From the sequence record PZ386972.1: a stretch of 64,000 bases of DNA; one strand, 5' to 3'. Numbering within the stretch: the stretch's first letter is position 1; the number at the start of each line of letters is the position of its first letter. Of this stretch, positions 22,030-32,465 are shown piece after piece. Source of the DNA: a phage. The translations under genes and the position numbers were made by a program. A model generated the notes under the pieces. That model had not been told where the DNA came from and searched no databases. It saw only the letters and a program-made list of their open reading frames with translations.

Positions 22030-22101
22030 CGGGGTGTAGTCTAAGGGAGAGGCAGGAGTCTTCTAAATTCCTTTATGCAGGTTCGAATCCTGTCACCTCG
22101 G
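22030..22101 (+). tRNA. tRNA-Arg (anticodon TCT)
   Basis: Acceptor CGGGGTG/CACCTCG, anticodon loop CTTCTAA, T-arm GCAGG-TTCGAAT-CCTGT, encoded CCA. Confidence 0.7.
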
Positions 22102-22138
22102 CCAATTTTATTAACTGTAACTAAAACAAAGGAAATAT

Positions 22139-23086
22139 ATGTTTAATACTAAAAATATGAAAGAACTGACTTCTGAGCAGAAAGTAATTCGTACTATTAA
22201 ACGTTGGGGTATTGGTGCTGTAGTTGGTTTAGCAGGCTTGATTCTAGCCTTTAATTCATATACTATTGTTTCTGATGGTACGGTTAAAACTCAAACATTC
22301 CTGGGTAAAGTAGATCCTAATCCAGTATTGCCGGGTTTCCATCTTGTAAACCCGTTTGCATCTTTCGATACTTTTAGTACAAAAGATATTGCTGTAAAAT
22401 TAGATAAACTTCAGGTTCCTAGTCAGGATAAGTTTAAATCCACTGTTGACCTGACTGTTATGTTGCAATTTGATGGTTCTAAGGCACCGATTAACCGTAT
22501 TAACGCAGGTACTCAGGATCAGGCACTAGACAAGTATGTAACTGAAAAATTACTGTCTACTATTCGTGAGTTTGGTAAGTCTGTACCTAAAGCACAAGAT
22601 TTGTTTGATGCTAAAATTCAGGCTCAATTGCAAACTGCAATTCAACAGGAAGTTGAAGAGTATGCGCGCCCATATGGTTACACAGTTAAGCAGGTATTCC
22701 TTCAGGATATTACCTTGCCGCCAGTAATCATGGAACAGGTACAGAATACCAAAGTTCGTGAAGAGCAAGTTAATGCTGCGAAAGCTGAACTTGCTCGCGT
22801 TGAACAGGAAGCACAGCAAAAAGTTAAACAAGCAGAAGCAGATCGTGAAGCTCGTAACAACCAAGCTATTGCTAATGAACGTGACGCAGATGCTAAACTG
22901 TACGCAGCTAAGAAAGAAGCTGAAGCTAACGCCGCATTGCAACGTACCATTACTCCTGAAATGATTCGTTGGAAACAACTGGAAGTTGAAATGATCCGTG
23001 CTCAGAAGTATCAAGGTGGTGTACCTCAGACTGTGGTAGGTACTGGCTACGATGGTCAAATGATCATGGATATGCGTAATAAATAA
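22139..23086 (+). CDS. SPFH/band-7 (HflC/prohibitin-like) membrane protein
   Basis: N-terminal TM helix, SPFH-like core, C-terminal Ala/Glu-rich coiled coil. Confidence 0.55.
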   Translation: MFNTKNMKELTSEQKVIRTIKRWGIGAVVGLAGLILAFNSYTIVSDGTVKTQTFLGKVDPNPVLPGFHLVNPFASFDTFSTKDIAVKLDKLQVPSQDKFKSTVDLTVMLQFDGSKAPINRINAGTQDQALDKYVTEKLLSTIREFGKSVPKAQDLFDAKIQAQLQTAIQQEVEEYARPYGYTVKQVFLQDITLPPVIMEQVQNTKVREEQVNAAKAELARVEQEAQQKVKQAEADREARNNQAIANERDADAKLYAAKKEAEANAALQRTITPEMIRWKQLEVEMIRAQKYQGGVPQTVVGTGYDGQMIMDMRNK

Positions 23087-23110
23087 TACCCGCATGTAAC
23101 ATCTGAAGTA

Positions 23111-23146
23111 AGCCCTGCGTTTCCTGGAGAGCGCAGGGCTTTTCTA
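23111..23146 (+). terminator. rho-independent terminator
   Basis: AGCCCTGCG...CGCAGGGCT hairpin followed by TTTTC. Confidence 0.6.
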
Positions 23147-23182
23147 TATAATGTAATTATAAAACTAACTAGGAGATTAAAC

Positions 23183-23701
23183 ATGGGTGTTGATGAATTA
23201 ACACAGCATCTTCTATCTAGAGGATTTGATGCGGATAAATATCATTGCTGGTTAAGTCCGGAAGGATGGCTAACAGTCCCGTTGTATGATTTCTCTGGGA
23301 TGTTGAGGGGCTATCAAACTTATAATCCTTCTGCTCCAAAAGGTCATGGTAAGTGTCCCTTTGAAGCTAAATATTTTACCTATTCTACTACCCAGTGTGT
23401 ATGGGGATTAGAAACTCTCAATGGAGATGAAAAAGTAGTATTGATCGCTGAATCTGTATTTAAGGCAGTTGCGTTACATAATGCTGGTTATCCAGCCCTA
23501 GCAATGTTGGGTTCTTCTCCAGGAAAAGCGTTATTAAAGCAACTGAAATTATTACCTTTTAAATTGGTAGCTGTCGGGGATAACGATCCTGCGGGTGAAA
23601 AATTTGCTAGAAAATTAAACGGCTTTGTTTCTCCTGTAGATGTGGATGAGATGTCTACAGAAAACTTGAAAAATTTTCTTGCTATGAAGCTAAATTTCTA
23701 A
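23183..23701 (+). CDS. Toprim-domain protein
   Basis: Conserved acidic residues LIAESVFKA and VGDNDPAGEKFA resemble the Toprim E and DxD motifs. Confidence 0.4.
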   Translation: MGVDELTQHLLSRGFDADKYHCWLSPEGWLTVPLYDFSGMLRGYQTYNPSAPKGHGKCPFEAKYFTYSTTQCVWGLETLNGDEKVVLIAESVFKAVALHNAGYPALAMLGSSPGKALLKQLKLLPFKLVAVGDNDPAGEKFARKLNGFVSPVDVDEMSTENLKNFLAMKLNF

Positions 23702-23707
23702 TATAAT
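23679..23707 (+). promoter_or_regulatory. T5-type promoter overlapping the 3' end of the upstream CDS
   Basis: TTGCTA-17-TATAAT ending about 15 nt before tRNA-Ser. Confidence 0.5.
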
Positions 23708-23722
23708 ATATCTTATAAATTC

Positions 23723-23808
23723 GGAAGAATAGCATAACGGTATTGCAGCAGATTGCTAATCTGTCGGTTTGAAATATAGCCTTGTGGGTTCGATTCCCAC
23801 TTCTTCCA
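23723..23808 (+). tRNA. tRNA-Ser (anticodon GCT), class II
   Basis: Acceptor GGAAGAA/TTCTTCC, anticodon loop TTGCTAA, long variable arm, T-arm GTGGG-TTCGATT-CCCAC, CCA encoded. Confidence 0.8.
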
Positions 23809-23817
23809 CCAAATTCT

Positions 23818-23892
23818 GGTTCTCAAGCTCATATGGTATGAGCACCCGGCTCATAACCGGAAGGTACGTAGGTTCGAATCCTCGGGGAGCCA
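23818..23892 (+). tRNA. tRNA with CAT anticodon (Met or Ile2)
   Basis: Acceptor GGTTCTC/GGGAGCC with wobbles, D-arm GCTC...GAGC, anticodon loop CTCATAA, TTCGAAT T-loop (imperfect T stem), CCA encoded. Confidence 0.6.
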
Positions 23893-23914
23893 CCAAATTA
23901 AATAAGGACAACTA

Positions 23915-24103
23915 ATGGAATTATTCATAGTTTCTGTTAAATTTGCACAAGATAGAGAACGTTCGGATGAGTTTAAACAAGGGTACAGACTAGTAAAGGC
24001 TACATCTGAACTCCATGCTATGGACAAAGTAGTAGACTATATGTATAATGTAGAAGATGTTTACTACGTCAATGCTTTAGAAGCCTCAAAAGTAATTAAC
24101 TAG
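23915..24103 (+). CDS. hypothetical protein
   Basis: ORF track. Confidence 0.4.
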   Translation: MELFIVSVKFAQDRERSDEFKQGYRLVKATSELHAMDKVVDYMYNVEDVYYVNALEASKVIN

Positions 24104-24112
24104 GGAGACTAT

Positions 24113-24289
24113 ATGTCTAAGTTTCAAGAACTCAAGCAAGAGCTAGAAGAGTGTGCCTGCCCTGAGTGTAGGGGAATTGGTGAAAGTTCTGATGCAGAAG
24201 CAGGAGATACTTTTTGCAATATCTGGGTTTGCCCAAATTGCAGTGGTACAGGTATTAATCCTAACTGCGGTATTTCCCCTAGATATTGA
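24113..24289 (+). CDS. small Cys-rich (zinc-ribbon-like) protein, 58 aa
   Basis: ATG 24113; CxxC...CxxC pairs (CPECRG, CPNCSG); below track cutoff. Confidence 0.35.
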   Translation: MSKFQELKQELEECACPECRGIGESSDAEAGDTFCNIWVCPNCSGTGINPNCGISPRY

Positions 24290-24400
24290 ACGAGGGTAAC
24301 ACCTGTGAAACTAAAAGATTATTATATTGGTTGGTTTGTGGGACTAGTAGTAGGATTTTCACTAGGCTATAATATGTATCAACTAATAAACTGATTACAT

Positions 24401-24474
24401 GGGGGTGTAATCGAATTGGCATAGGTACTGGACTTAAAATTCAGGTTTTGTGGGTTCGAATCCCACCACCCCTA
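24401..24474 (+). tRNA. tRNA with TAA anticodon (Leu by anticodon) but class I architecture
   Basis: Acceptor GGGGGTG/CACCCCT, anticodon stem CTGGA/TTCAG, loop CTTAAAA, 5-nt variable loop, T-arm GTGGG-TTCGAAT-CCCAC, CCA encoded; weak D stem. Confidence 0.5.
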
Positions 24475-24652
24475 CCAACTTAAGGAAATAAGATGTATAG
24501 ACATCCACCTCCGCCAACACGTCGTTCTAGAGAAGTTATCCTCATGGAATTGACGAAAAACTTCAAGGCAACTCTTGAAGATAGAGATCTAGGCACGGAT
24601 GAAGACATTGATTTTATTTGTAGACTATTAAAGATGAAACTGGAGAAACAAC

Positions 24653-24859
24653 ATGGCTAATCCTGAAATTACCGCACAACGTTTCATGCTTAAAGGCATG
24701 ATTGCTGAGGCAGGTATGACCCAAGAGGTTGCAGACTTTCATAAGCAATTTCTTGATATTATAACTCTAGCTAAAGAGACAGGAGAAAGAGAACACGGAG
24801 CAGCAATTATGGCTATATCTCTTATTAGCCTAGACTTAGCTGAAGAATCTGGAGTTTAG
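24653..24859 (+). CDS. hypothetical protein
   Basis: ORF track. Confidence 0.4.
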   Translation: MANPEITAQRFMLKGMIAEAGMTQEVADFHKQFLDIITLAKETGEREHGAAIMAISLISLDLAEESGV

Positions 24860-24889
24860 CTCCTCCAAACAGAATTTTTAAAAATGTAC

Positions 24890-24919
24890 TTGCCTTTTGC
24901 TTTAAATTTCTGGTATAAT
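24890..24919 (+). promoter_or_regulatory. T5-type early promoter
   Basis: TTGCCT-18-TATAAT. Confidence 0.55.
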
Positions 24920-24949
24920 AGTTATATAAATTGATGAAGGAGTTAACGA

Positions 24950-25225
24950 ATGCAAAATCGTGTTATAGCAACTGGTATTGAAAGTGCAATCTGTAAATCC
25001 TGGGAAGGCTGGGAAGGTGAGATTGAATGGCTTTATTTCTACGATGTAGAACTTCTGCCGGAAGTTAAAGCTAAATGTGTTGAAGCTGGCATGGCTCCAG
25101 ATGCAAAAGCTGATATTGATATTTCAATGTCTGAACTTAAAGGTCGTGTAATTACTGTTAGTGATGAGGGCGAAGAAGTTTTCGAACTTCCATTCTCCTT
25201 AACTGTCGCTCCTAAGTTCGACTAA
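24950..25225 (+). CDS. hypothetical acidic protein
   Basis: ORF track. Confidence 0.4.
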   Translation: MQNRVIATGIESAICKSWEGWEGEIEWLYFYDVELLPEVKAKCVEAGMAPDAKADIDISMSELKGRVITVSDEGEEVFELPFSLTVAPKFD

Positions 25226-25261
25226 CTAATACAGCACTGAGCAAGTTCTTTAAAATTTGAC

Positions 25262-25290
25262 TTGCTCAGTGCCATAAAACTTGATATAAT
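25262..25290 (+). promoter_or_regulatory. T5-type promoter; its -35 lies in the 3' arm of a long terminator-like inverted repeat
   Basis: CAGCACTGAGCAAG...CTTGCTCAGTGC inverted repeat at about 25232-25273, then TTGCTC-17-TATAAT. Confidence 0.55.
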
Positions 25291-25353
25291 AGTTATCTAA
25301 TTTGGAAACATATCTAAAAGTGTTTAAACTAGTATTTGAATACTTTTAAATAT

Positions 25354-25438
25354 GGGCGTTTATTCCGTAGATGGTAGCGGAGGGGATTGTAAATCCCTGG
25401 TCATTGCGACTCGAGTGGTTCGACTCCATTAACGCCCA
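25354..25438 (+). tRNA. tRNA-Tyr (anticodon GTA), class II
   Basis: Acceptor GGGCGTT/AACGCCC, anticodon loop TTGTAAA, long variable arm, T-arm GTGG-TTCGACT-CCAT, CCA encoded. Confidence 0.8.
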
Positions 25439-25459
25439 CCAAATTTAAAGGTAAAATAT

Positions 25460-25942
25460 ATGTACACTGATAGAATTGTTCAAGAAGCTGCAAACAGAGG
25501 TCTTATTGATCTGGGATCACCAGTTGATATAACTAAAGAGCTAATAACAGAGAGCCTTACGTTTGGCACAGCTAACTTTGGCCGAGATAGTAACCGTCGG
25601 TATAGCTTGAAACTATCAGCATTATCTTTTATTAAGTACAATAAGAGTATTGGAGAAAAATCAAGTTGTGGTTTTATCTACGCGATAACTAATCCAGCTT
25701 GGACTGATTATGTAAAAATTGGCATGTCTTCTGACCCAAAAACAAGATTAGCCAATTACCAGACATATTCTCCACTACGTGACTATAAGTTAATACATTG
25801 GTCATTTTGGTTTAATGCTAGAGAAGCAGAGAAAATGCTTCATAATAGCTTTCCAAAAAGAATTAATGAATGGGTAGTTTTGGACAGAAGTGTAGATGAA
25901 ACACTTGCTGATTTTAATAAACTATCTAATAAACAATTTTAA
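25460..25942 (+). CDS. T5orf172/GIY-YIG-like domain protein (homing-endonuclease-like) embedded in tRNA cluster
   Basis: GFIYAITNPAWTDYVKIGMSSDPKTRLANYQT matches the GIY-YIG-related T5orf172 signature. Confidence 0.5.
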   Translation: MYTDRIVQEAANRGLIDLGSPVDITKELITESLTFGTANFGRDSNRRYSLKLSALSFIKYNKSIGEKSSCGFIYAITNPAWTDYVKIGMSSDPKTRLANYQTYSPLRDYKLIHWSFWFNAREAEKMLHNSFPKRINEWVVLDRSVDETLADFNKLSNKQF

Positions 25943-25943
25943 T

Positions 25944-26015
25944 GCACCTATCATCTATCGGTTAGGACATCAGGTTTTCAACCTGAGAAGCTTGGTTCGA
26001 TTCCGTGTGGGTGTA
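25944..26015 (+). tRNA. tRNA-Glu (anticodon TTC)
   Basis: Acceptor GCACCTA/TGGGTGT, anticodon stem TCAGG/CCTGA, loop TTTTCAA, TTCGATT T-loop, CCA encoded. Confidence 0.7.
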
Positions 26016-26026
26016 CCAAATTCTGC

Positions 26027-26100
26027 ATTCCTAGAGTGTTACTGGACAGCATGTCGGTCTCCAAAACCGTACGGTCTAGGTTCGAGTCCTAGTAGGTTTG
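26027..26100 (+). tRNA. tRNA-Trp (anticodon CCA)
   Basis: Anticodon loop CTCCAAA, T-arm CTAGG-TTCGAGT-CCTAG, CCA encoded; acceptor stem has two U-U mismatches. Confidence 0.55.
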
Positions 26101-26109
26101 CCAAAATTT

Positions 26110-26181
26110 GCACCTTTAGCTGAGATGGATTAGCGCTTGCCTGAAGAGCTTGAGAGGTTCGTTCGATACGAACAGGGTGCA
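26110..26181 (+). tRNA. tRNA-Phe (anticodon GAA), tentative
   Basis: Acceptor GCACCTT/AGGGTGC, loop CTGAAGA, T-arm GTTCG-TTCGATA-CGAAC, CCA encoded; anticodon stem weak. Confidence 0.5.
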
Positions 26182-26201
26182 CCAAATTGAGGGAGCTGCT
26201 G

Positions 26202-26474
26202 ATGCATCCTGAAAACTTCTTTATTTACTGCGCGGATAAGTTGCTGAAACGTAGAATTAACAAAGTCTATCATTATCGTGCTAGTCAACAGCCTTATGTA
26301 TACGCTTTTGACGGTGATCACATCCCATTAGAACAACTATCTTGTGATTACATGATATTGAAGAACTTTGACGAGACAAAGATCTCAAGCGTTCATAATC
26401 GACAGAATCCCTTAACGTGGAAATATAAGAAGAAAAAGAAAGGCATCAAATTCTTAAAAAATGTAGTTGCTTAG
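26202..26474 (+). CDS. hypothetical protein
   Basis: ORF track (TTG 26187); ATG 26202 with GAGGGAG RBS preferred. Confidence 0.4.
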   Translation: MHPENFFIYCADKLLKRRINKVYHYRASQQPYVYAFDGDHIPLEQLSCDYMILKNFDETKISSVHNRQNPLTWKYKKKKKGIKFLKNVVA

Positions 26475-26495
26475 TTTCCAAAAGTTCTGTATAAT
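26467..26495 (+). promoter_or_regulatory. T5-type early promoter
   Basis: TTGCTT-17-TATAAT. Confidence 0.6.
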
Positions 26496-26523
26496 AATTA
26501 CATAAATTGAACTGGAGAAGCAA

Positions 26524-26811
26524 ATGAAACGATTAGTTAGATTTAAGTGTTGTGGTTCTGAACATATTTTCACACATCTTCGTGAATTTAAAATGTGTGA
26601 TTGTGGTAAATCAGGCTATGACTCAGGAGATGGGTTCTACACCCGTACTCTAGGGAACTTCAATGATCTAGAATTTGAAGATCTCGAAAAACAAGAAAAA
26701 GAATTATGTATCTGTTATGAATGTGGTGATCAAGATTACTACTCTAAAACAGGTAAGAAAGTGTGTAGCAATTGTGGTTCCGATCATGTAGCTACACATT
26801 ATGAAAGATAA
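26524..26811 (+). CDS. zinc-ribbon protein with four CxxC pairs
   Basis: CCGSEH, CDCG, CICYECG, CSNCG motifs. Confidence 0.45.
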   Translation: MKRLVRFKCCGSEHIFTHLREFKMCDCGKSGYDSGDGFYTRTLGNFNDLEFEDLEKQEKELCICYECGDQDYYSKTGKKVCSNCGSDHVATHYER

Positions 26812-26816
26812 TAAAC

Positions 26817-26889
26817 CGACCGTTGGCTGAATGGCTTAGGCGAAGGATTGCAAATCCTTTTTATGTGAGTTCAAATCTCATGCGGTCGT
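26817..26889 (+). tRNA. tRNA-Cys (anticodon GCA)
   Basis: Acceptor CGACCGT/GCGGTCG, anticodon stem AAGGA/TCCTT, loop TTGCAAA, T-arm GTGAG-TTCAAAT-CTCAT, CCA encoded. Confidence 0.75.
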
Positions 26890-26892
26890 CCA

Positions 26893-27044
26893 ATTTGCTG
26901 AAAGAATTGTTAAATCAATTCAGGCACGCGTAGGAACACTGTCTCCGTAATTGAAAGATGAGACACGGTTTGGAGAGGTATGCCGCTACACGCTACGGTG
27001 CTAACTCCGTCTAGGTGAAAATCCTAGTCAGCAATATAAATTTA
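26893..27044 (+). ncRNA. about 150 nt structured spacer between tRNA-Cys and tRNA-Asn (candidate small RNA)
   Basis: Hairpins such as GTCTC...GAGAC; no ORF. Confidence 0.25.
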
Positions 27045-27124
27045 GGGTCGTTAGCCAAGCGGTTTGGCGGTGGACTGTTAATCCATGTCGAAAGACAACG
27101 TAGGTTCGAATCCTACACGGCCCG
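27045..27124 (+). tRNA. tRNA with GTT anticodon (Asn) and unusually long 13-nt variable arm
   Basis: Acceptor GGGTCGT/ACGGCCC, D-arm GCCA...TGGC, anticodon stem GTGGA/TCCAT, loop CTGTTAA, variable GTCGAAAGACAAC, TTCGAAT T-loop, CCA encoded. Confidence 0.65.
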
Positions 27125-27229
27125 CCAAATTCTGTGTAGAGTTAAGTAAACCGGTAGCCAACCAGCTATCATTGCTGACATCGAATTCAGCCACAGATAC
27201 CATTTTCATTAATAACTGAGGAAACAAGC

Positions 27230-27415
27230 ATGTCCAAGAATGTAATTGCACAGTTAGAAGTTCATCGTGATAACACAGCTAATAACATTAAGTGCCGACA
27301 AAAAGATATTGAAGCTCAAAAGGCTGATCTTTTAATGAGTATTCGAGAGCTTAATGTACGAAAAGAGTTTCTTAAAGAACTTAATGCAGCTATTGAAAAA
27401 CTCAAAGCTGAGTAA
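27230..27415 (+). CDS. small coiled-coil protein
   Basis: ORF track. Confidence 0.35.
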   Translation: MSKNVIAQLEVHRDNTANNIKCRQKDIEAQKADLLMSIRELNVRKEFLKELNAAIEKLKAE

Positions 27416-27424
27416 ATGAATTAT

Positions 27425-27498
27425 GCGACCGGGGCTGGCTTGGTAATGGTACTCCCCTGTCACGGGAGGGAATGTGGGTTCGAATCCCATCGGTCGCG
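27425..27498 (+). tRNA. tRNA-Asp (anticodon GTC)
   Basis: Acceptor GCGACCG/CGGTCGC, anticodon stem CTCCC/GGGAG, loop CTGTCAC, T-arm GTGGG-TTCGAAT-CCCAT, CCA encoded. Confidence 0.8.
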
Positions 27499-27678
27499 CC
27501 AAATAAGGTAGGTTAGCTATGGAACGTAGGGAGTTTACTCCGGAAGAGATAGAGCAGATAAAAGAATCTGCTATGAAAAATGCTAGAATATCTCTGTCAC
27601 TGGAAGGTATCATTATAAGTGATGTAAACTTTGAAAAAATCAAAGCCATAGCTGATGAACTGGAAAAAGTAATTTAAT

Positions 27679-27751
27679 ACATCCATAGCTCAATGGTTAG
27701 AGCTACCGCCTCTTAAGCGGAGGGTTCTAGGTTCAAGTCCTAGTGGGTGTA
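27679..27751 (+). tRNA. tRNA-Lys (anticodon CTT)
   Basis: Acceptor ACATCCA/TGGGTGT, D-arm GCTC...GAGC, loop CTCTTAA, T-arm CTAGG-TTCAAGT-CCTAG, CCA encoded. Confidence 0.65.
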
Positions 27752-27780
27752 CCAAACTAAACTAGCACGAGAAATATGCT

Positions 27781-28128
27781 ATGATTAATGCTAAAGAAGA
27801 GTTGTTACTTGCCCTAAAGAATACTAAGTCTGAAGTTAAGTGTATTAAGATAGAATTCGGTTATTATGGGAACAAAGAAGTTTGGATATTACCCGTAGGT
27901 TATACAGAAAAAGATATTGAAGATTTTCTAAATAATCTAGACTTCAAATATGATTCTGGTTTCGGTGGACAATTGCTTTACGGTAACGTATGGTTTACTG
28001 ATGGAACTTGGTTAGAGCGTGGTGAATATGATGGTTCTGAATGGTGGGAGTATAAGACTACACCAGCAATCCCAGAAGAATGCCGAACAATTAATGGTGA
28101 AGTAGATCGTACTTTACTATTAAATTAA
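27781..28128 (+). CDS. hypothetical protein
   Basis: ORF track. Confidence 0.45.
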   Translation: MINAKEELLLALKNTKSEVKCIKIEFGYYGNKEVWILPVGYTEKDIEDFLNNLDFKYDSGFGGQLLYGNVWFTDGTWLERGEYDGSEWWEYKTTPAIPEECRTINGEVDRTLLLN

Positions 28129-28250
28129 CAAAATTTCAGTGCAGAACACGGAGCTAGCAATTCGGAAGTGCTGACTCATGATAGGCTGCCTATGTACTTG
28201 CGAAGCGGTCGTGTCCAAGACTCGGACTCTTGCACTGAAAACAATCAAAC

Positions 28251-28368
28251 ATTCTAGCGTGGTTGATGGGGAAACCAGCTTGGCTAGGGCAGAAGCTCGT
28301 TCGATTCGAGTGAAAGAATGGTTCTCGTAAGTCCGCACAAGTGATAACAGGTTCGAGTCCTGTCTAGA
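28251..28368 (+). ncRNA. 118-nt tRNA-like RNA: perfect 7-bp acceptor-like stem and canonical T-arm, no encoded CCA
   Basis: 5' ATTCTAG pairs with 3' CTAGAAT; T-arm ACAGG-TTCGAGT-CCTGT; internal second TTCGATT hairpin. Confidence 0.35.
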
Positions 28369-28383
28369 ATGACACTATAAAGT

Positions 28384-28494
28384 TTACTTATTATGTAGGT
28401 TCCGATAGATCGGCGGGTCTATTCTGGCATTTAAGAGAGGTCTCGCAAACTTCTTTGTCAGCCGTGGGGTTGATAGCCTCCAGGTGGCCTACAC
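28384..28494 (+). ncRNA. about 110-nt structured RNA closed by terminal helix
   Basis: 5' TGTAGGT pairs with 3' GCCTACA; internal hairpins; no ORF. Confidence 0.3.
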
Positions 28495-28520
28495 AATAAG
28501 TAAATTTATTAAAAATTCAT

Positions 28521-28549
28521 TTGCTATTCTGCTTAATTATCTGTATAAT
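28521..28549 (+). promoter_or_regulatory. T5-type early promoter
   Basis: TTGCTA-17-TATAAT. Confidence 0.6.
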
Positions 28550-28579
28550 ATATTTTATAAAGTGAGTTAACAAAATTAA

Positions 28580-28652
28580 CAGTGCGTAGCGCAGTTGGTA
28601 GCGTGGGAGCCTTGGATGCTTCGGGTCGCAGGTTCGAGTCCTGCCGCACTGA
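28580..28652 (+). tRNA. tRNA-Pro (anticodon TGG)
   Basis: Acceptor CAGTGCG/CGCACTG, D-arm GCGC...GCGT, loop CTTGGAT, T-arm GCAGG-TTCGAGT-CCTGC, CCA encoded. Confidence 0.75.
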
Positions 28653-28661
28653 CCAAACAAT

Positions 28662-28736
28662 TGCGGGTTAGATCTCTGGTAGAGATCGCTAGTCTCATAA
28701 GCTAGAAAGAGGTAGGTTCGATTCCTGCACCCGCTT
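28662..28736 (+). tRNA. tRNA with CAT anticodon (Met or Ile2)
   Basis: D-arm GATC...GATC, anticodon stem CTAGT/GCTAG, loop CTCATAA, TTCGATT T-loop, CCA encoded; 1-72 U-U mismatch. Confidence 0.6.
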
Positions 28737-28759
28737 CCATTTTAATAGAGGATTTCGAA

Positions 28760-28927
28760 ATGAAAGTATTTCGATTAGTAGTAAGTGACAAACGTTTAGG
28801 TAAGAATACCTCAAAATCCTTACTTGCTCATTATGGAAAAGATGAGAAAGAAGTAATGGCGGAGTTTGGGATTAATCACCCTTACTTGAAAGTTCACTCT
28901 ATTAAAGAAGTATATAATGGTTACTAA
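28760..28927 (+). CDS. small hypothetical protein (55 aa)
   Basis: ATG with GAGGA RBS between two tRNAs; below track cutoff. Confidence 0.3.
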   Translation: MKVFRLVVSDKRLGKNTSKSLLAHYGKDEKEVMAEFGINHPYLKVHSIKEVYNGY

Positions 28928-28928
28928 T

Positions 28929-29004
28929 AGATCGCTAGCTCAATAGGTTTAGTAGCATCCGACTTTTAATCGGAAGGTTCTGGGTTCGAGTCCCAGGCGA
29001 TCTA
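28929..29004 (+). tRNA. tRNA-Lys (anticodon TTT)
   Basis: Acceptor AGATCGC/GCGATCT, anticodon stem TCCGA/TCGGA, loop CTTTTAA, T-arm CTGGG-TTCGAGT-CCCAG, CCA encoded. Confidence 0.8.
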
Positions 29005-29026
29005 CCAATTTCAAGAAAAACGCAGT

Positions 29027-29054
29027 TGCTTGATGCTTAATTTCTTGTTATAAT
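29027..29054 (+). promoter_or_regulatory. T5-type early promoter
   Basis: TTGCTT-16-TATAAT. Confidence 0.55.
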
Positions 29055-29104
29055 ATTTATATAAATTGATGAGGATTTCTCCTCATCATAGTTCACTAAG
29101 GTAT

Positions 29105-29268
29105 TAGCTCGACCTAGGACTGGCTGCCAAAAAGCACGATCCCTACGATTCGGGAGAAGTTCTAGATTAGTCCACTAGATTCAGCGGCAACTGAATAGTG
29201 TATCGGGTTTGCGAGATGACGCGGTTCCTTCCGCTCGAAGCGAAGGTGCTGTAGTTACGCCGAGCTAA
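29105..29268 (+). ncRNA. about 165-nt structured RNA closed by TAGCTCG/CGAGCTA helix
   Basis: Long-range complementary 7-mers plus internal hairpins; no ORF. Confidence 0.3.
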
Positions 29269-29292
29269 TAGCCTTAGTAAACTAAAGAATTT

Positions 29293-29368
29293 GGGGAATG
29301 GGTCTGCATGGAGTGGACACCTCGCTTGCACCGAGGACATCAGAACGGTTCGATTCCGTTATTCTCCA
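29293..29368 (+). tRNA. tRNA-Ala (anticodon TGC)
   Basis: Acceptor GGGGAAT/ATTCTCC with G3-U70 wobble, anticodon stem CCTCG/CGAGG, loop CTTGCAC, T-arm AACGG-TTCGATT-CCGTT, CCA encoded. Confidence 0.75.
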
Positions 29369-29376
29369 CCAAATAC

Positions 29377-29450
29377 GCGTGATTGATGGAATTGGCATAC
29401 ATACCGTCCTTAGAAGTCGGGTTTTGAGGGTTCGAATCCCTTGTCACGCA
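29377..29450 (+). tRNA. tRNA with TAG anticodon (Leu by anticodon) but class I architecture
   Basis: Acceptor GCGTGAT/GTCACGC, loop CTTAGAA, 5-nt variable loop, T-arm GAGGG-TTCGAAT-CCCTT, discriminator A, CCA encoded; weak D stem. Confidence 0.5.
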
Positions 29451-29453
29451 CCA

Positions 29454-29565
29454 AATTTGATGGTCAGAGTAAATTAAACCTACTATCTCGGTTGAGCTGT
29501 TTTAATGGGTTCGAATCCCAGCGAGGCGTAACTGCCTGGCGTGATAGAGGCATCATCTTATTATT
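29454..29565 (+). ncRNA. about 110-nt segment containing an orphan T-arm-like hairpin (tRNA-like fragment or small RNA)
   Basis: TGGG-TTCGAAT-CCCA hairpin with no matching acceptor stem or CCA; AGGCGTAACTGCCT hairpin. Confidence 0.25.
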
Positions 29566-29653
29566 GGAAGAGCAAATCGAATTGGCGACGAAAACCGCTT
29601 GGAAAGTGGCTGACTGGTAAAACGGCTTGAGAGTTCAAATCTCTCCTCTTCCG
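29566..29653 (+). tRNA. tRNA-Ser (anticodon GGA), class II
   Basis: Acceptor GGAAGAG/CTCTTCC, loop TTGGAAA, long variable arm, T-arm GAGAG-TTCAAAT-CTCTC, CCA encoded. Confidence 0.7.
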
Positions 29654-29668
29654 CCAAACAATTTATAT

Positions 29669-29760
29669 GGTAGGTCAATCCAATGGCTGGCGCTGGACTC
29701 CGACTTGAAATCGGTTGATCGTAGTGATACGGTGTAAGGGTTCGATCCCCTTACCTACCT
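29669..29760 (+). tRNA. tRNA-Ser (anticodon TGA), class II
   Basis: Acceptor GGTAGGT/ACCTACC, loop CTTGAAA, long variable arm, T-arm AAGGG-TTCGATC-CCCTT, CCA encoded. Confidence 0.7.
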
Positions 29761-29764
29761 CCAA

Positions 29765-29910
29765 GTCTTGAAGTATGCCGGAATCGGTAGACGGGGCTGC
29801 CTAAAAGGTTTATAGGGAACATCCACTCCCTACAACATACCTCATAAAGCGGCTGAGATAAATGGTCTATCTCGTGAAGGTTCAAGTCCTTCTGCTTCTT
29901 GATACATCTA
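29765..29910 (+). ncRNA. about 145-nt structured segment with D-arm-like and T-arm-like hairpins but no complete cloverleaf
   Basis: GAGATA-AATGGTC-TATCTC and GAAGG-TTCAAGT-CCTTC hairpins; no CCA. Confidence 0.25.
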
Positions 29911-30014
29911 TGGCTCAAAGTGTAACGGTGCTATTTGATGCTCTTAGTAAGACTTTCCCGACATGCGTTCGGGAGTAAGCTGCTAAGGCTAGAATAGAAG
30001 AGTTTCTGAGAGCC

Positions 30015-30134
30015 GCCACAATTGAAAATTCGTACTCGTCTTGAGCTGCGTGCAATAGGAGATAACTTGATTAGTATTCTAGAACATGCTAATTGAGGAT
30101 GGTTTCGCTAACCCTGCGAGTTTTCAATTGTGGC
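30015..30134 (+). ncRNA. structured element closed by a perfect 14-bp helix whose 3' strand overlaps the 5' end of tRNA-His
   Basis: GCCACAATTGAAAA at about 30015-30028 is the exact reverse complement of TTTTCAATTGTGGC at about 30121-30134. Confidence 0.4.
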
Positions 30135-30203
30135 TATATCATAATTGGTTAATGATCCTGATTGTGAATCAGGCCTATGTGGATTCGAATTCCACTAGCC
30201 ACC
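30130..30203 (+). tRNA. tRNA-His (anticodon GTG)
   Basis: Acceptor GTGGCTA/TAGCCAC, anticodon stem CCTGA/TCAGG, loop TTGTGAA, T-arm GTGGA-TTCGAAT-TCCAC, discriminator C, CCA encoded. Confidence 0.8.
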
Positions 30204-30231
30204 CCAAATTAACTTAAATAGGAAATAAAAT

Positions 30232-30429
30232 ATGGCTGATTTCTGCAAACAATGCTCCATTGATATGTGGGGCAGAGATACTGGTGATCTTTCTGGTTTG
30301 ATTACAGAAGCTGAGGTCAAAGAAGGTTATGGTGCAGTTGTGATTTGCGAAGGATGCGGAGTTATTCGAGTAGATCATGAAGGCAAACGTTTAGAAGAAC
30401 AGGAAAACTTAGGAGAAACAAATGAGTAA
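30232..30429 (+). CDS. small Cys-containing protein
   Basis: ORF track. Confidence 0.4.
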   Translation: MADFCKQCSIDMWGRDTGDLSGLITEAEVKEGYGAVVICEGCGVIRVDHEGKRLEEQENLGETNE

Positions 30430-30658
30430 TGCTTTAATTAGTGAAATTATGTTAACACGTCTTGCAGAACTGCAAACTCTTCGAGATGAATCTCAGAATA
30501 ACTTAGCCTACCATAAACAGATGGTAGATACTCTTACTACTCGTATTGATACTTACGAGCGTGATATTGCAGCATTACAAGCTCTTTTCTCTGTATCAGC
30601 ACCAGATACGTTAGAACAGCCTGCTGTATCTCAGCCAGTAGAAACAGCATCTAGCTAA
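30422..30658 (+). CDS. hypothetical coiled-coil protein
   Basis: ORF track; overlaps upstream stop. Confidence 0.4.
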   Translation: MSNALISEIMLTRLAELQTLRDESQNNLAYHKQMVDTLTTRIDTYERDIAALQALFSVSAPDTLEQPAVSQPVETASS

Positions 30659-30667
30659 TAGCATTCT

Positions 30668-30740
30668 TGGGATGTAGATCAATTGGCAGATCGTCGGCCT
30701 CTGACTCCGAAGGTTCCACGTTCGATCCGTGGCATCCCAG
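30668..30740 (+). tRNA. tRNA-Gln (anticodon CTG)
   Basis: Acceptor TGGGATG/CATCCCA, D-arm GATC...GATC, loop CTCTGAC, T-arm CCACG-TTCGATC-CGTGG, discriminator G, CCA encoded. Confidence 0.7.
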
Positions 30741-30749
30741 CCAAACAAT

Positions 30750-30822
30750 TGGAGAGTAGTGTAACGGTTAGCACAACGGCCTTTGACTCCGTTAATGGTA
30801 GGTTCGATTCCTCCTTCTCCAG
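30750..30822 (+). tRNA. tRNA-Gln (anticodon TTG)
   Basis: Acceptor TGGAGAG/TTCTCCA, loop CTTTGAC, TTCGATT T-loop, discriminator G, CCA encoded. Confidence 0.65.
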
Positions 30823-30833
30823 CCAAGTAATAA

Positions 30834-30906
30834 GCGGTTAAGCACACGGGTTGTGTCGCAGGCCTTCCAAGCCTCGCTGAGTAGGGTTCGATTCCCTCTA
30901 GCCGCT
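30834..30906 (+). tRNA. tRNA-Gly (anticodon TCC)
   Basis: Acceptor GCGGTTA/TAGCCGC, loop CTTCCAA, TTCGATT T-loop, CCA encoded. Confidence 0.6.
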
Positions 30907-30925
30907 CCAACTTTAAGGAAACATT

Positions 30926-31177
30926 ATGCACGTTTTTGAGTTTCGTAATAAAAGTACCGATAAACGAGTTATTGTTATTGGAGAAACATACCGAGCATAC
31001 GAACAAACTGACGGCTCTGTTATCCTAAACGATGAGAAAGGAGGTTTTAGCTTTTATCCAGAAGAACCTTATGAAGAGTTTCGAAAACAATTTAACCTAG
31101 ACTGGAGAAAGCATTTAAACACTGTTGCTTCATCTGTAGTATTGCCAACTACCAGTACTGTACTCTCTAATGGCTGA
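30926..31177 (+). CDS. hypothetical protein
   Basis: ORF track. Confidence 0.4.
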   Translation: MHVFEFRNKSTDKRVIVIGETYRAYEQTDGSVILNDEKGGFSFYPEEPYEEFRKQFNLDWRKHLNTVASSVVLPTTSTVLSNG

Positions 31178-31342
31178 TAACCTAAAAGTCAAGATCGATA
31201 AACAAAAGAAACGTGTAGAAGTAGAGATTGGTGAAGAACGTGTAGCCTTCACCTTTGAATTTCTACAACAAATGGCAATGGCGGTTATGACTGATAAGTC
31301 TCCTGTTATTGAAAAAGAAATCCCGTTGAAATAACGGGTTCT

Positions 31343-31426
31343 GCTGGGTTGGCAGAATGGTTGAATGCACCTGATTTGTAATCAGGAGGAGTAATCCCGT
31401 TGCAGGTTCGAATCCTGTGCCCAGCA
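31343..31426 (+). tRNA. tRNA with TGT anticodon (Thr) and long 15-nt variable arm
   Basis: Acceptor GCTGGGT/GCCCAGC, anticodon stem CCTGA/TCAGG, loop TTTGTAA, T-arm GCAGG-TTCGAAT-CCTGT, CCA encoded. Confidence 0.55.
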
Positions 31427-31611
31427 CCAACTTAAGGACTATTATGTTTAAATTATTAGTAGTTATCTGGTATAGTCAATCAAATAGAGCGAATACCTCC
31501 CACGTTATAGACTTTAATACTAAAAATGAAGCTGAAAAAGCATATTCTAATTTAATAGAACGTAATAAAGAATCTCGTAGTATAGTTTATGAAGTGACTA
31601 AACTTTATTAA
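31417..31611 (+). CDS. small hypothetical protein (track start overlaps tRNA 3' end; true start probably the internal ATG)
   Basis: ORF track. Confidence 0.3.
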   Translation: MPSTNLRTIMFKLLVVIWYSQSNRANTSHVIDFNTKNEAEKAYSNLIERNKESRSIVYEVTKLY

Positions 31612-31619
31612 AAATTCAT

Positions 31620-31648
31620 TTGCTTTCTCTCTTATTTATTGTTATAAT
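31620..31648 (+). promoter_or_regulatory. T5-type early promoter
   Basis: TTGCTT-17-TATAAT. Confidence 0.6.
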
Positions 31649-31678
31649 ATTTATATAAATTAATGAGAGGGAAGCCAA

Positions 31679-31972
31679 ATGAAACGTTATCTTTCTGTTG
31701 TGTTCCAAACTGGTGGTCAACGCTATACCTATGAATTTCCTGGCTCTTGGAAGATCAAAGAGGGTGATCAAGTAGTAGTGTTAACACCGCGTGAGGGTTT
31801 CAAGGTAGTAACGGTTAAGCAAGTATTTCCAAAAGAGCATGAACCAGCTAAAGGCATTCGCTATAAGATGATTCATGGTGTAGTTCGTCAAGTACCACGA
31901 GCGGAAGTCGAAATCAAAGTAGATAAAGATGGTAGACTTAAATATACCTCTTGCTTAGATGAGCTGCTATAA
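31679..31972 (+). CDS. hypothetical protein
   Basis: ORF track, GAGGGAAG RBS. Confidence 0.45.
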   Translation: MKRYLSVVFQTGGQRYTYEFPGSWKIKEGDQVVVLTPREGFKVVTVKQVFPKEHEPAKGIRYKMIHGVVRQVPRAEVEIKVDKDGRLKYTSCLDELL

Positions 31973-32178
31973 TGAGGATTACTTTCACAGAAAAGATCAT
32001 GAGTAATGGTGTTATGATCATTACTGCATGGGATGGCAATCAGTGGTGTAGTGTTTCAGGTATTAAGCCTGAAGAACAAACACTAGAAAATATCTCAAAG
32101 ATTAAGCGAAGAATGGCAGAACGTGCACGACTTCCAGGTGCACCTAGAAATGGCAAACGTTCTGCTGCAAAATGTTAA
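31972..32178 (+). CDS. hypothetical protein
   Basis: ORF track, ATGA start-stop overlap with upstream gene. Confidence 0.4.
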   Translation: MRITFTEKIMSNGVMIITAWDGNQWCSVSGIKPEEQTLENISKIKRRMAERARLPGAPRNGKRSAAKC

Positions 32179-32179
32179 T

Positions 32180-32253
32180 GCTTCGGTAGCTTAGCGATCT
32201 AAAGCACTCGGCTGATAACCGAGAGATCGGGGGTTTAAATCCCTCCCGGAGTA
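32180..32253 (+). tRNA. tRNA-Ile (anticodon GAT) with atypical TTTAAAT T-loop
   Basis: Acceptor GCTTCGG/CCGGAGT, anticodon stem CTCGG/CCGAG, loop CTGATAA, T-arm GGGGG-TTTAAAT-CCCTC, CCA encoded. Confidence 0.7.
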
Positions 32254-32352
32254 CCAAATTTAGGAATTAAGACTATGCGTCCAGGAAAGTTTAAAAAAGC
32301 TAATTGGTCTAAAGAGTATAAAGAATACTTACTTAGTCTAGTAAAACATAAC

Positions 32353-32425
32353 AGTTAGTTGGCAGAGTGGTTATGCACCTCCTTCATACGGAGCGACTAC
32401 AGTGGTTCAAATCCACTACTAACTA
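32353..32425 (+). tRNA. tRNA with CAT anticodon (Met or Ile2)
   Basis: Acceptor AGTTAGT/ACTAACT, loop TTCATAC, T-arm AGTGG-TTCAAAT-CCACT, CCA encoded. Confidence 0.65.
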
Positions 32426-32465
32426 CCATTAAAAGAGCTAGAGATAGCTAAATTTAGGAGCAGCT

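What the first reader, a model, noticed from the sequence alone, without database searches (positions are those of the whole stretch)
25460..25942. GIY-YIG-related (T5orf172-type) gene inside the tRNA cluster
The protein carries the GFIYAI...KIGMS...R motif block of the T5orf172/GIY-YIG family and lies directly between tRNA-Tyr and tRNA-Glu. Nuclease-like selfish genes in tRNA clusters may target tRNA genes of competing phages or hosts.
Basis: partly seen in the sequence, partly recalled or inferred. Interest (0 to 1): 0.4.

Follow-up and report, generated by a model that had tools for sequence, protein, structure and literature searches.

The report
Mobile nuclease gene between phage tRNAs
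A small, intact T5orf172 (GIY-YIG-type) nuclease gene fills the spacer between the tRNA-Tyr and tRNA-Glu genes of a T5-like phage and shows the population signature of a homing-endonuclease gene; elements of this kind are already known, so the finding is real but fairly ordinary.

Summary
A 160-aa ORF (25460-25942, +) lies between tRNA-Tyr and tRNA-Glu in the tRNA array of a T5-like phage. It passes Pfam's T5orf172 and MUG113 cut-offs. A confident AlphaFold model has GIY-YIG nucleases (Slx1, I-TevI, UvrC) as its best structural matches.

Y74, K86, G88, R96 and E124 are invariant in 103 homologues, and dN/dS is 0.06, so the gene is functional.

The closest relative (phage SCF, 97-99% flanks) lacks it: there, 7 bp separate the two tRNAs. 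Only 42 of 121 public phage records with the same tRNA-Tyr allele carry it. The tRNA-Tyr/ORF/tRNA-Glu block is more similar than the backbone in one comparison and less similar in another.

The best explanation is a free-standing T5orf172 homing endonuclease that cuts ORF-less co-infecting phages near this junction and spreads with the neighbouring tRNA alleles. Cleavage and target are inferred, not shown.

It is a 42% paralogue of T5 gene T5.069. The nearest functional precedent is T4 SegB.

One modest addition: its ~65-aa N-terminal domain defines a narrow subfamily found almost only inside tRNA arrays, in both T5-like and T4-like phages.

New member of a known kind; low-to-moderate interest.

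The parts
25244..25317 (+). Likely early promoter for the tRNA-Tyr / ORF / tRNA-Glu-Trp-Phe transcript. It is the equivalent of T5 promoter P14a, with TTGACT at 25257-25262 and an extended -10 TGATATAAT at 25282-25290.
   Evidence: The stretch is about 97% identical to the T5 region annotated 'promoter P14a' upstream of T5 tRNA-Tyr. The simple consensus scan did not call it, so this rests on homology only.
25354..25441 (+). tRNA-Tyr(GTA), 88 nt, here called allele 'W'. It has U32 in the anticodon loop and stems that differ from the host-like 'S' allele of phage SCF.
   Evidence: ARAGORN calls it. It is 69% identical to the SCF allele. It occurs in 121 phage records, 42 of them with the ORF. 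It falls below Rfam's tRNA gathering score.
25440..25448 (+). Left copy (CAAATTTAA) of an imperfect 9-nt direct repeat that brackets the insert. It consists of the tRNA-Tyr 3' end plus the inter-tRNA spacer.
   Evidence: Comparison of filled sites with the empty sites of EH7, TrudiGerster and SCF.
25449..25459 (+). Start of the inserted DNA, carrying a Shine-Dalgarno-like AAGG 8 nt before the ATG.
   Evidence: Read directly from the sequence. The same AGGTAAA..ATG leader is present in I14, L098, L099 and the Klebsiella phage.
25460..25663 (+). N-terminal domain of the ORF, residues 1-68: three helices and no Cys/Zn motif. It defines the subfamily and is the putative target-recognition module.
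25664..25942 (+). T5orf172 / GIY-YIG-like nuclease domain, residues 69-160, plus the stop codon. Candidate catalytic residues are Y74, K86, R96, E124 and E137.
25934..25942 (+). Right copy (CAATTTTAA) of the 9-nt direct repeat. It spans the last two codons (Q, F) and the TAA stop.
   Evidence: In I14 and the Klebsiella phage the equivalent ORF has no stop of its own and reads into the downstream tRNA.
25944..26018 (+). tRNA-Glu(TTC), 75 nt, rare allele 'W'. It is 56-58% identical to the common allele.
   Evidence: ARAGORN and Rfam call it. Among public phage records the allele is found only in EH7 and TrudiGerster, plus a partial match in GSW6, and never together with the ORF. It does occur with the ORF in L098 and L099/L100.

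Best explanation
The ORF is a free-standing homing-endonuclease-type gene of the T5orf172 branch of the GIY-YIG nucleases, inserted in the 7-8-bp spacer between tRNA-Tyr and tRNA-Glu of a T5-like phage (Demerecviridae). It is probably transcribed early, from the P14a-like promoter, as part of the tRNA precursor transcript. The N-terminal ~65 residues would position the C-terminal nuclease domain on DNA of the tRNA array. In a mixed infection the enzyme would cut the genome of a related phage that lacks the gene, at or near the Tyr|Glu junction. Recombinational repair from the ORF-bearing genome would then copy the ORF and the adjacent tRNA alleles into the cut genome. Its own genome would be protected because the insertion splits the site. 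Shown here: the gene is intact and under purifying selection, it has the nuclease fold and conserved catalytic-type residues, it is present or absent at one precise site, and the block has a history different from its flanks. Inferred: DNA cleavage, the location of the target, and the role of the N-terminal domain.

For: 2. Catalytic-type residues. Y74, K86, G88, R96 and E124 are invariant and E137/W138 nearly so in 103 homologues. hhalign pairs Y74/K86/R96 with I-TevI Y6/Y17/R27. A T5orf172 nuclease, ICP1 Odn, is experimentally active and depends on the equivalent Glu (PMC8263062).

3. Purifying selection. dN/dS is 0.062 overall, 0.05 for the N-terminal domain and 0.07 for the nuclease domain.

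4. Precise presence/absence. SCF has 97-99% identical flanks and 7 bp between the two tRNAs. EH7 carries the very same Tyr-W and Glu-W alleles, 7 bp apart, with no ORF. 42 of 121 records with the Tyr-W allele carry the ORF. The gene occurs in both Tequintavirus and Epseptimavirus.

5. Decoupled history of the block. Against L099 the flanks are 77-79% identical but Tyr is 99%, the ORF 91% and Glu 97%. Against I14 the flanks are 96-97% but the ORF is 85% and Glu 47%.

6. Paralogues fill other inter-tRNA spacers: T5.069 between Cys and Asn, the Klebsiella phage and CkP1 between Tyr and Asn, 44RR2.8t between Tyr and Lys, and Hades between Asp and Pro.

7. Precedents. T5orf172 homing-endonuclease genes are described as abundant in T5-like phages and as sitting at boundaries of genetic exchange (PMC10448857). 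T4 SegB is a GIY-YIG homing endonuclease inside a tRNA cluster that recognises tRNA T-arm DNA and carries neighbouring tRNA genes with it (PMC2330249).
Confidence: 0.6

Rival explanations
1. It is a competition or exclusion nuclease rather than a homing element. The enzyme would cut DNA of co-infecting phages, satellites or the host to benefit its own phage, as ICP1 Odn does, without promoting its own copying.
For: Odn shares the architecture of an N-terminal targeting domain followed by a C-terminal T5orf172 domain, and it is a defence nuclease against satellites (PMC8263062). The gene would be expressed early from the tRNA operon. It weakly matches the candidate defence family PDC-S57 in PADLOC through the nuclease domain only, E=1e-8.
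Against: The sporadic distribution at one exact site, the intact empty sites and the block history decoupled from the backbone are what gene-level mobility predicts. The N-terminal domain tracks residence in tRNA arrays, not any recognisable satellite feature.
Confidence: 0.15
2. It is a passenger gene. The ORF would have some unrelated or dispensable function and be shuffled, like the other small ORFs of the array, by ordinary homologous recombination between conserved tRNA sequences of co-infecting phages.
For: The whole array is mosaic. tRNA alleles, HNH genes and small ORFs all vary between relatives. Other small ORFs in the window also end 1-9 nt before a tRNA, so tight packing is not specific to this gene. 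The block's boundaries coincide with tRNA gene ends.
Against: The gene has a conserved nuclease active-site pattern under strong purifying selection. The family recurs in tRNA arrays of unrelated phage families. Nuclease genes at exchange boundaries are the documented pattern for T5orf172 homing-endonuclease genes.
Confidence: 0.12
3. It is a domesticated DNA-binding regulator, like CapR, that has lost or no longer uses its cleavage activity, for example to modulate transcription or processing of the tRNA operon.
For: T5orf172 homing-endonuclease genes have been domesticated as repressors in phage satellites (listing; PMC10448857). The protein is small and compact, with pTM 0.86.
Against: Y74, R96 and E124 are invariant across 103 sequences. 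The gene is dispensable in close relatives.
Confidence: 0.06
4. It acts on RNA, either by cleaving or processing tRNAs or pre-tRNAs of the host or of rivals, or by assisting maturation of the phage's own tRNA precursor.
For: The subfamily lives almost only inside tRNA arrays. The ORF is co-transcribed with tRNAs and abuts a tRNA 5' end. Weak fold hits of the N-terminal domain include RNA-binding proteins such as uL11, Prp31/Nop and eS17.
Confidence: 0.05

Closest known systems
Phage T5 gene T5.069 (YP_006897, 172 aa, 'hypothetical protein'), between tRNA-Cys and tRNA-Asn. It is probably the ORF after which the Pfam T5orf172 domain was named; that is my inference from its length and location.
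   Same: It has the same two-domain architecture, 41.6% identity over residues 5-157 (E 2e-40), the same orientation inside the same tRNA array, and a 3' end abutting the next tRNA.
   Different: It occupies a different inter-tRNA spacer (Cys|Asn rather than Tyr|Glu) and overlaps the downstream tRNA by 24 nt. T5 itself has an empty Tyr|Glu site. Its function is also untested.
T5orf172 homing-endonuclease genes of ICP1 and other phages, and the ICP1 nuclease Odn (Barth et al. 2021, PMC8263062; Barth, Dunham and Seed 2023, PMC10448857)
   Same: They share the nuclease domain family, the order of an N-terminal targeting region followed by a C-terminal T5orf172 domain, and a location at boundaries of genetic exchange. 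T5-like phages are explicitly listed as rich in such genes.
   Different: Those genes mostly carry CapR, DUF723, DUF4397 zinc-finger or RepA_N DNA-binding domains and sit near terminase, ribonucleotide reductase, capsid or replisome genes. This one has a distinct helical N-terminal domain free of cysteines and sits in a tRNA array.
T4 SegB (Brok-Volchanskaya et al. 2008, PMC2330249)
   Same: It is a GIY-YIG-superfamily homing endonuclease gene located inside a phage tRNA gene cluster and absent from close relatives. It spreads itself together with neighbouring tRNA genes, and its recognition site contains the conserved tRNA T-arm sequence.
   Different: SegB is a canonical Seg-type enzyme with an N-terminal GIY-YIG domain and a C-terminal DNA-binding region. 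It is not T5orf172, and no sequence similarity was detected here. SegB's activity is demonstrated, whereas this protein's is not.
T5 HNH endonucleases F-TflI/II/IV (hegA, hegC), encoded in the T5 tRNA region (Akulenko et al. 2004, as cited in PMC10644984)
   Same: They are free-standing, sporadically distributed endonuclease genes wedged between tRNA genes of the same array. hegC also overlaps its downstream tRNA.
   Different: They have an unrelated HNH nuclease fold.

Membership tests
Pfam T5orf172 (PF10544) / MUG113 (PF13455), GIY-YIG clan | Score above the curated gathering threshold of the family HMM | tested here: met
   PF10544 scores 36.3 bits against a cut-off of 20 (residues 71-134). 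PF13455 scores 36.1 against 22.3 (residues 85-139).
GIY-YIG nuclease superfamily | Core fold: a three-stranded antiparallel sheet (beta1 'GIY', beta2 'YIG', beta3) flanked by helices | tested here: met
GIY-YIG nuclease superfamily | Catalytic residues: Tyr of GIY, Tyr of YIG, Arg in helix 1, metal-binding Glu, and a C-terminal Asn | tested here: inconclusive
   Y74 and R96 are invariant and align with I-TevI Y6 and R27. The second Tyr is K86, which is invariant and typical of T5orf172. E124 is invariant and sits in the helix after beta3, where I-TevI E75 lies, but this equivalence is inferred from secondary-structure position and is not a computed alignment. E137 sits roughly where the Asn would be.
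GIY-YIG nuclease superfamily | Sequence-level match to solved GIY-YIG enzymes | tested here: not met
   phmmer and profile hmmsearch against PDB sequences gave no relevant hit. NCBIfam gave none. The relationship is visible only through Pfam clan membership and fold.
Homing endonuclease gene (functional class) | Presence/absence polymorphism at one precise site among close relatives, with intact empty sites | tested here: met
   SCF, EH7, T5 and DaisyDussoix have Tyr and Glu 6-8 bp apart. 42 of 121 Tyr-W records carry the ORF.
Homing endonuclease gene (functional class) | History of the gene and its immediate flanks decoupled from the genome backbone (horizontal spread, co-conversion) | tested here: met
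   Segment identities against L099, I14 and SCF. The gene occurs in two genera.
Homing endonuclease gene (functional class) | Site-specific cleavage of the gene-less allele and nuclease-dependent over-transmission in mixed infection | not testable with these tools
   This needs biochemistry and phage crosses.
T5orf172 homing-endonuclease genes as described by Barth et al. 2023 | CapR, DUF723 or DUF4397 zinc-finger (CxxC...CxC) or RepA_N DNA-binding region next to the nuclease domain | tested here: not met
   The protein has a single Cys (C70). Pfam finds no second domain. None of the 109 N-domain relatives hits any Pfam family other than T5orf172 and MUG113.
Seg-type GIY-YIG homing endonucleases (SegA-G, I-TevI-like) | N-terminal canonical GIY-YIG domain (PF01541) followed by a C-terminal DNA-binding region | tested here: not met
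   The domain order is reversed and there is no PF01541 hit. The protein works like SegB by position but is not a Seg family member.

The most novel reading that the evidence does not exclude
The ~65-residue N-terminal domain may be a previously undescribed module that recognises tRNA-gene DNA (or tRNA-like structure) and confines this T5orf172 subfamily to tRNA arrays in unrelated phage families: T5-like Demerecviridae of Escherichia, Salmonella, Klebsiella and Vibrio, and T4-like Straboviridae of Aeromonas and Citrobacter. If so, these nucleases would be the engines that shuffle phage tRNA repertoires. That would include alleles such as tRNA-Tyr that counter host tRNA-targeting defences. It would also explain the recurrent Tyr|ORF|Asn arrangement and the 96%-identical tRNA-Asn shared across genera.
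Probability: 0.3. Interest if true: 0.55.

Novelty: new member of a known kind. Interest (0 to 1): 0.3.

Why it matters
If the homing model is right, this gene is one of the agents that make the tRNA region of T5-like phages so mosaic. It would move whole tRNA alleles between phages. T5 tRNA-Tyr is reported to rescue cells from a tRNA-targeting retron (cited in PMC10644984). Nuclease-driven exchange of tRNA alleles could therefore spread counter-defence traits. The N-terminal domain could also be a compact new DNA-recognition module. None of this changes current concepts: homing endonucleases in phage tRNA clusters (T4 SegB, the T5 F-Tfl enzymes) and T5orf172 homing-endonuclease genes in T5-like phages are already described.

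Tried and rejected
- **Sequence searches for solved relatives.** Single-sequence and 103-sequence profile searches against PDB sequences gave nothing useful. NCBIfam gave no hit.
- **Paralogues in the window.** A family-HMM scan of all six-frame ORFs found only this gene.
- **Strict linkage of the ORF to a special tRNA-Tyr allele.** Rejected as a two-way rule. The ORF always follows allele W (42 records), but 79 records have allele W without the ORF.
- **'Immunity' substitutions next to the insertion.** None are consistent. EH7 (empty) and L098/L099 (filled) share the same flanking bases.
- **The 152-nt Cys-Asn gap as a remnant of a T5.069-type gene.** There is no tblastn similarity.
- **Co-transfer of tRNA-Asn with a piece of the ORF between the Klebsiella phage and T5.** The similarity starts at or a few bases before the tRNA 5' end (shared ATG) and does not extend into the ORFs.
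- **Modular reuse of the N-terminal domain with other nucleases.** Not found. 82 of 109 representatives hit T5orf172, the rest appear to be short fragments (judged from the lengths listed), and no other Pfam family appears.
- **IMG/VR scan with the conserved upstream flank.** It gave only 7 loci, all with empty sites.
- **Promoter and terminator consensus scan.** It did not call the P14a-like promoter and found no terminator.
- **Literature.** No paper in the searchable library links T5orf172 genes specifically to tRNA arrays.

Full report
**1. What is there**

The window is part of a T5-like phage genome (Demerecviridae). A 14-kb stretch around the finding matches 678 phage records. The best is Salmonella phage SCF, at 98.2% identity over 96% of the stretch.

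ARAGORN finds 22 tRNA genes at 22030-32428, all on the + strand. The ORF at 25460-25942 (+, 160 aa) begins 18 nt after tRNA-Tyr (25354-25441). Its TAA stop ends one base before tRNA-Glu (25944-26018).

**2. A real gene of the T5orf172 / GIY-YIG kind**

- Pfam T5orf172 (36.3 bits, cut-off 20) and MUG113 (36.1 bits, cut-off 22.3) are both passed.
- PHROG 5032, of unknown function, matches the full length at E=1e-50.
- An AlphaFold2 model built on 103 homologues is confident, with pLDDT 92.7 and pTM 0.86. It shows three N-terminal helices (residues 5-63) followed by a beta-beta-alpha-beta-alpha core.
- The scores are moderate, and sequence searches against the PDB find nothing.
- Across the 103 homologues Y74, K86, G88, R96, Q101, P105 and E124 are invariant, and E137/W138 nearly so.
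- A weak hhalign alignment pairs Y74, K86, G88 and R96 with I-TevI Y6, Y17, G19 and R27. I infer that E124 is the metal-binding Glu from its position in the helix after beta3.
- For the T5orf172 nuclease Odn of phage ICP1, DNA cleavage has been shown and is abolished by mutating the equivalent Glu (PMC8263062).
- Against the orthologue in phage I14, dN/dS is 0.062 with dS 0.87, and it is similar in both domains. The protein is therefore under strong purifying selection.

**3. Expression (inferred)**

The region upstream of tRNA-Tyr is about 97% identical to the T5 stretch annotated as early promoter P14a. It contains TTGACT and an extended -10 TGATATAAT. A Shine-Dalgarno-like AAGG precedes the ATG.

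The ORF would therefore be translated from the tRNA precursor transcript. The simple promoter scan did not call this site.

**4. Presence/absence at one precise site**

- The closest relative, SCF, lacks the ORF. There, tRNA-Tyr and tRNA-Glu are 7 bp apart. The window-SCF alignment runs at 97-99% identity up to 25448 and resumes at 26016.
- T5, DaisyDussoix, EH7, TrudiGerster and six of the seven IMG/VR loci found with the upstream flank (the seventh has no tRNA genes) also have empty sites.
- EH7 carries the same tRNA-Tyr and tRNA-Glu alleles as the window, with 7 bp between them. The window therefore looks like an EH7-type site plus the insert.
- The insert is bracketed by an imperfect 9-nt direct repeat, CAAATTTAA at 25440-25448 and CAATTTTAA at 25934-25942. 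The right copy is the last two codons plus the stop.
- In I14 and in Klebsiella phages the equivalent ORF has no stop of its own and reads a few codons into the next tRNA.

**5. Population picture**

The window's tRNA-Tyr allele ('W') is only 69% identical to the SCF allele ('S'). Allele W occurs in 121 phage records. Of these, 42 have the ORF behind it and 79 do not. The number with the ORF agrees with the 41 records that encode an 80-90% identical protein.

So the ORF implies allele W, but allele W does not imply the ORF.

The window's tRNA-Glu allele is rare. Among public phage records it occurs in EH7 and TrudiGerster, with a partial match in GSW6, and never together with the ORF. The Tyr-W/ORF/Glu-W combination does occur in a Logan assembly (L098, ORF 99.6% identical) and in a phage contig of a Salmonella assembly (L099/L100, ORF 91.5%).

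The gene is found in both Tequintavirus (slur09, where it is not annotated) and Epseptimavirus (S116).

**6. The block's history is decoupled from the backbone**

| Comparison with the window | Flanks | tRNA-Tyr | ORF | tRNA-Glu |
|---|---|---|---|---|
| L099 | 77-79% | 99% | 91% | 97% |
| I14 | 96-97% | 98% | 85% | 47% |
| SCF | 97-99% | different allele (69%) | absent | different allele (58%) |

[quoted passage not shown] That paper names T5-like phages as rich in T5orf172 genes.

**7. Relatives and a subfamily confined to tRNA arrays**

- T5 itself encodes a 41.6%-identical paralogue, T5.069 (172 aa). It lies between tRNA-Cys and tRNA-Asn and overlaps the latter. I infer from its length and location that it is the ORF after which the Pfam domain was named.
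- A 56%-identical form in Klebsiella T5-like phages sits between tRNA-Tyr and tRNA-Asn.
- A 43%-identical, 181-aa form occupies the same Tyr|Glu spacer in another T5-like genome (L018).
- Homologues lie between tRNA genes in T4-like phages, Aeromonas 44RR2.8t (Tyr|Lys) and Citrobacter CkP1 (Tyr|Asn), and in Vibrio phage Hades (Asp|Pro).
- A domain-only homologue in a jumbo Yersinia phage sits next to the capsid gene, with no tRNA nearby.
- In 80 IMG/VR loci (54 distinct proteins), 14 of the 16 proteins with the N-terminal domain abut a same-strand tRNA gene at their 3' end. Only 1 of the 38 without the domain does so. Fisher p is 5e-10, but the sequences are not phylogenetically independent.
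- A search of 1.84 billion representative proteins with the N-domain profile finds only 117. The domain is always N-terminal. 82 of 109 scanned carry T5orf172, the remainder appear to be short fragments (lengths), and no other Pfam family appears.
- The N-terminal domain alone gives no significant fold match.

One control weakens part of this. Other small ORFs in this array also end 1-9 nt before a tRNA. Tight packing against the downstream tRNA is therefore not specific to this gene. What is specific is that the subfamily resides in tRNA arrays at all.

**8. Interpretation**

The best-supported reading (about 0.6) is a free-standing T5orf172 homing-endonuclease gene whose target lies in or near the Tyr|Glu junction of ORF-less relatives. 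It would spread together with adjacent tRNA alleles.

The nearest functional precedent is T4 SegB, a GIY-YIG homing endonuclease in the T4 tRNA cluster. SegB recognises the conserved T-arm sequence in tRNA-gene DNA and drags neighbouring tRNA genes along (PMC2330249). T5's own HNH enzymes in the same array are another precedent.

Cleavage, target and biased inheritance are not shown. The rivals are an Odn-like exclusion nuclease, a passenger gene moved by recombination between tRNA repeats, a domesticated regulator, and an RNA-directed activity.

**9. Novelty and score**

The gene is a new member, and in several public records an unannotated one, of a known kind. The concept of homing endonucleases spreading phage tRNA genes is already in the literature.

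The modest addition is a narrow two-domain T5orf172 subfamily restricted to tRNA arrays across phage families. I found no description of it in the searchable library. Interest is 0.3.

Noticed in passing
window 25354-25441; also 29293-29371 and 23818-23892: Rfam's tRNA model at its gathering score does not report the ARAGORN tRNA-Tyr (allele W) or the tRNA-Ala at 29293-29371. It does report an extra tRNA at 23818-23892 that ARAGORN missed. Some public records annotate allele W as 'tRNA-Pseudo-GTA'. Allele W has U32 and different stems compared with the host-like allele S. T5's related tRNA-Tyr is annotated as an effective amber suppressor after anticodon replacement, and T5 tRNA-Tyr is reported to rescue retron Eco7 toxicity.
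   Followed up: partly
window 26893-27044: A 152-nt non-coding stretch lies between tRNA-Cys and tRNA-Asn, where I14 and TrudiGerster have 7 nt and T5 has T5.069. It is 97-100% conserved in SCF, L098, L006 and L027. It is 87% conserved in a Klebsiella phage, where it lies just downstream of tRNA-Asn (L017 2548-2690). It folds stably (-41.9 kcal/mol, not compared with shuffled sequence) and shows no similarity to T5.069. It may be one of the small stable RNAs annotated in the T5 tRNA region.
   Followed up: partly
L011 3468-3545, L010 4487-4564, L097 3953-4030 (tRNA-Asn, 78 nt): The tRNA-Asn allele that directly follows the family gene is 96% identical between a Klebsiella T5-like phage and T5/DaisyDussoix. 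Their other shared tRNAs are 55-85% identical. E. coli and Salmonella phages without a gene at that spot carry a 61-64% identical 83-nt allele.
   Followed up: partly
family loci L017, L018, L103, L014, L042, L048, L061, L089: tRNA-Tyr upstream and tRNA-Asn downstream recur as neighbours of subfamily genes. Tyr|ORF|Asn appears in both a T5-like Klebsiella phage and a T4-like Citrobacter phage, and Asn is the downstream tRNA in about 7 of 16 distinct contexts. Yet outside the T5-like/Klebsiella pair the Asn genes themselves are only 59-71% identical. This is unexplained. It could reflect an ancestral arrangement or a target preference.
   Followed up: partly
L002 3066-4837 versus window ~23090-23180: Phage SCF has a ~1.8-kb block of four minus-strand ORFs between the lipoprotein gene and the primase-like gene that the window lacks. 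Its position matches T5.077-079, judged from position and ORF sizes only. This is another presence/absence difference between two 98%-identical phages.
   Followed up: no
L097 1023-1607 (T5 hegC); L010 7661-8245: The HNH endonuclease gene hegC of T5 and DaisyDussoix also overlaps the 5' end of its downstream tRNA-Ser by about 14 nt. Reading into the next tRNA is therefore shared by unrelated endonuclease genes in this array.
   Followed up: no
L101 (NC_028840 slur09) 825-1307 and other public records: The orthologous ORF is not annotated at all in several public records, among them slur09 RefSeq, ESCO30, SE18 and 1-29. Record PP892525 (phage I14), a T5-like genome, is labelled Felixounavirus in its taxonomy line.
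   Followed up: no
L013 3011-3169 (TrudiGerster): TrudiGerster carries both tRNA-Glu alleles in tandem, the rare W type and then the common S type, after an S-type tRNA-Tyr. tRNA alleles in this array therefore also accumulate by duplication or insertion, not only by replacement.
   Followed up: no
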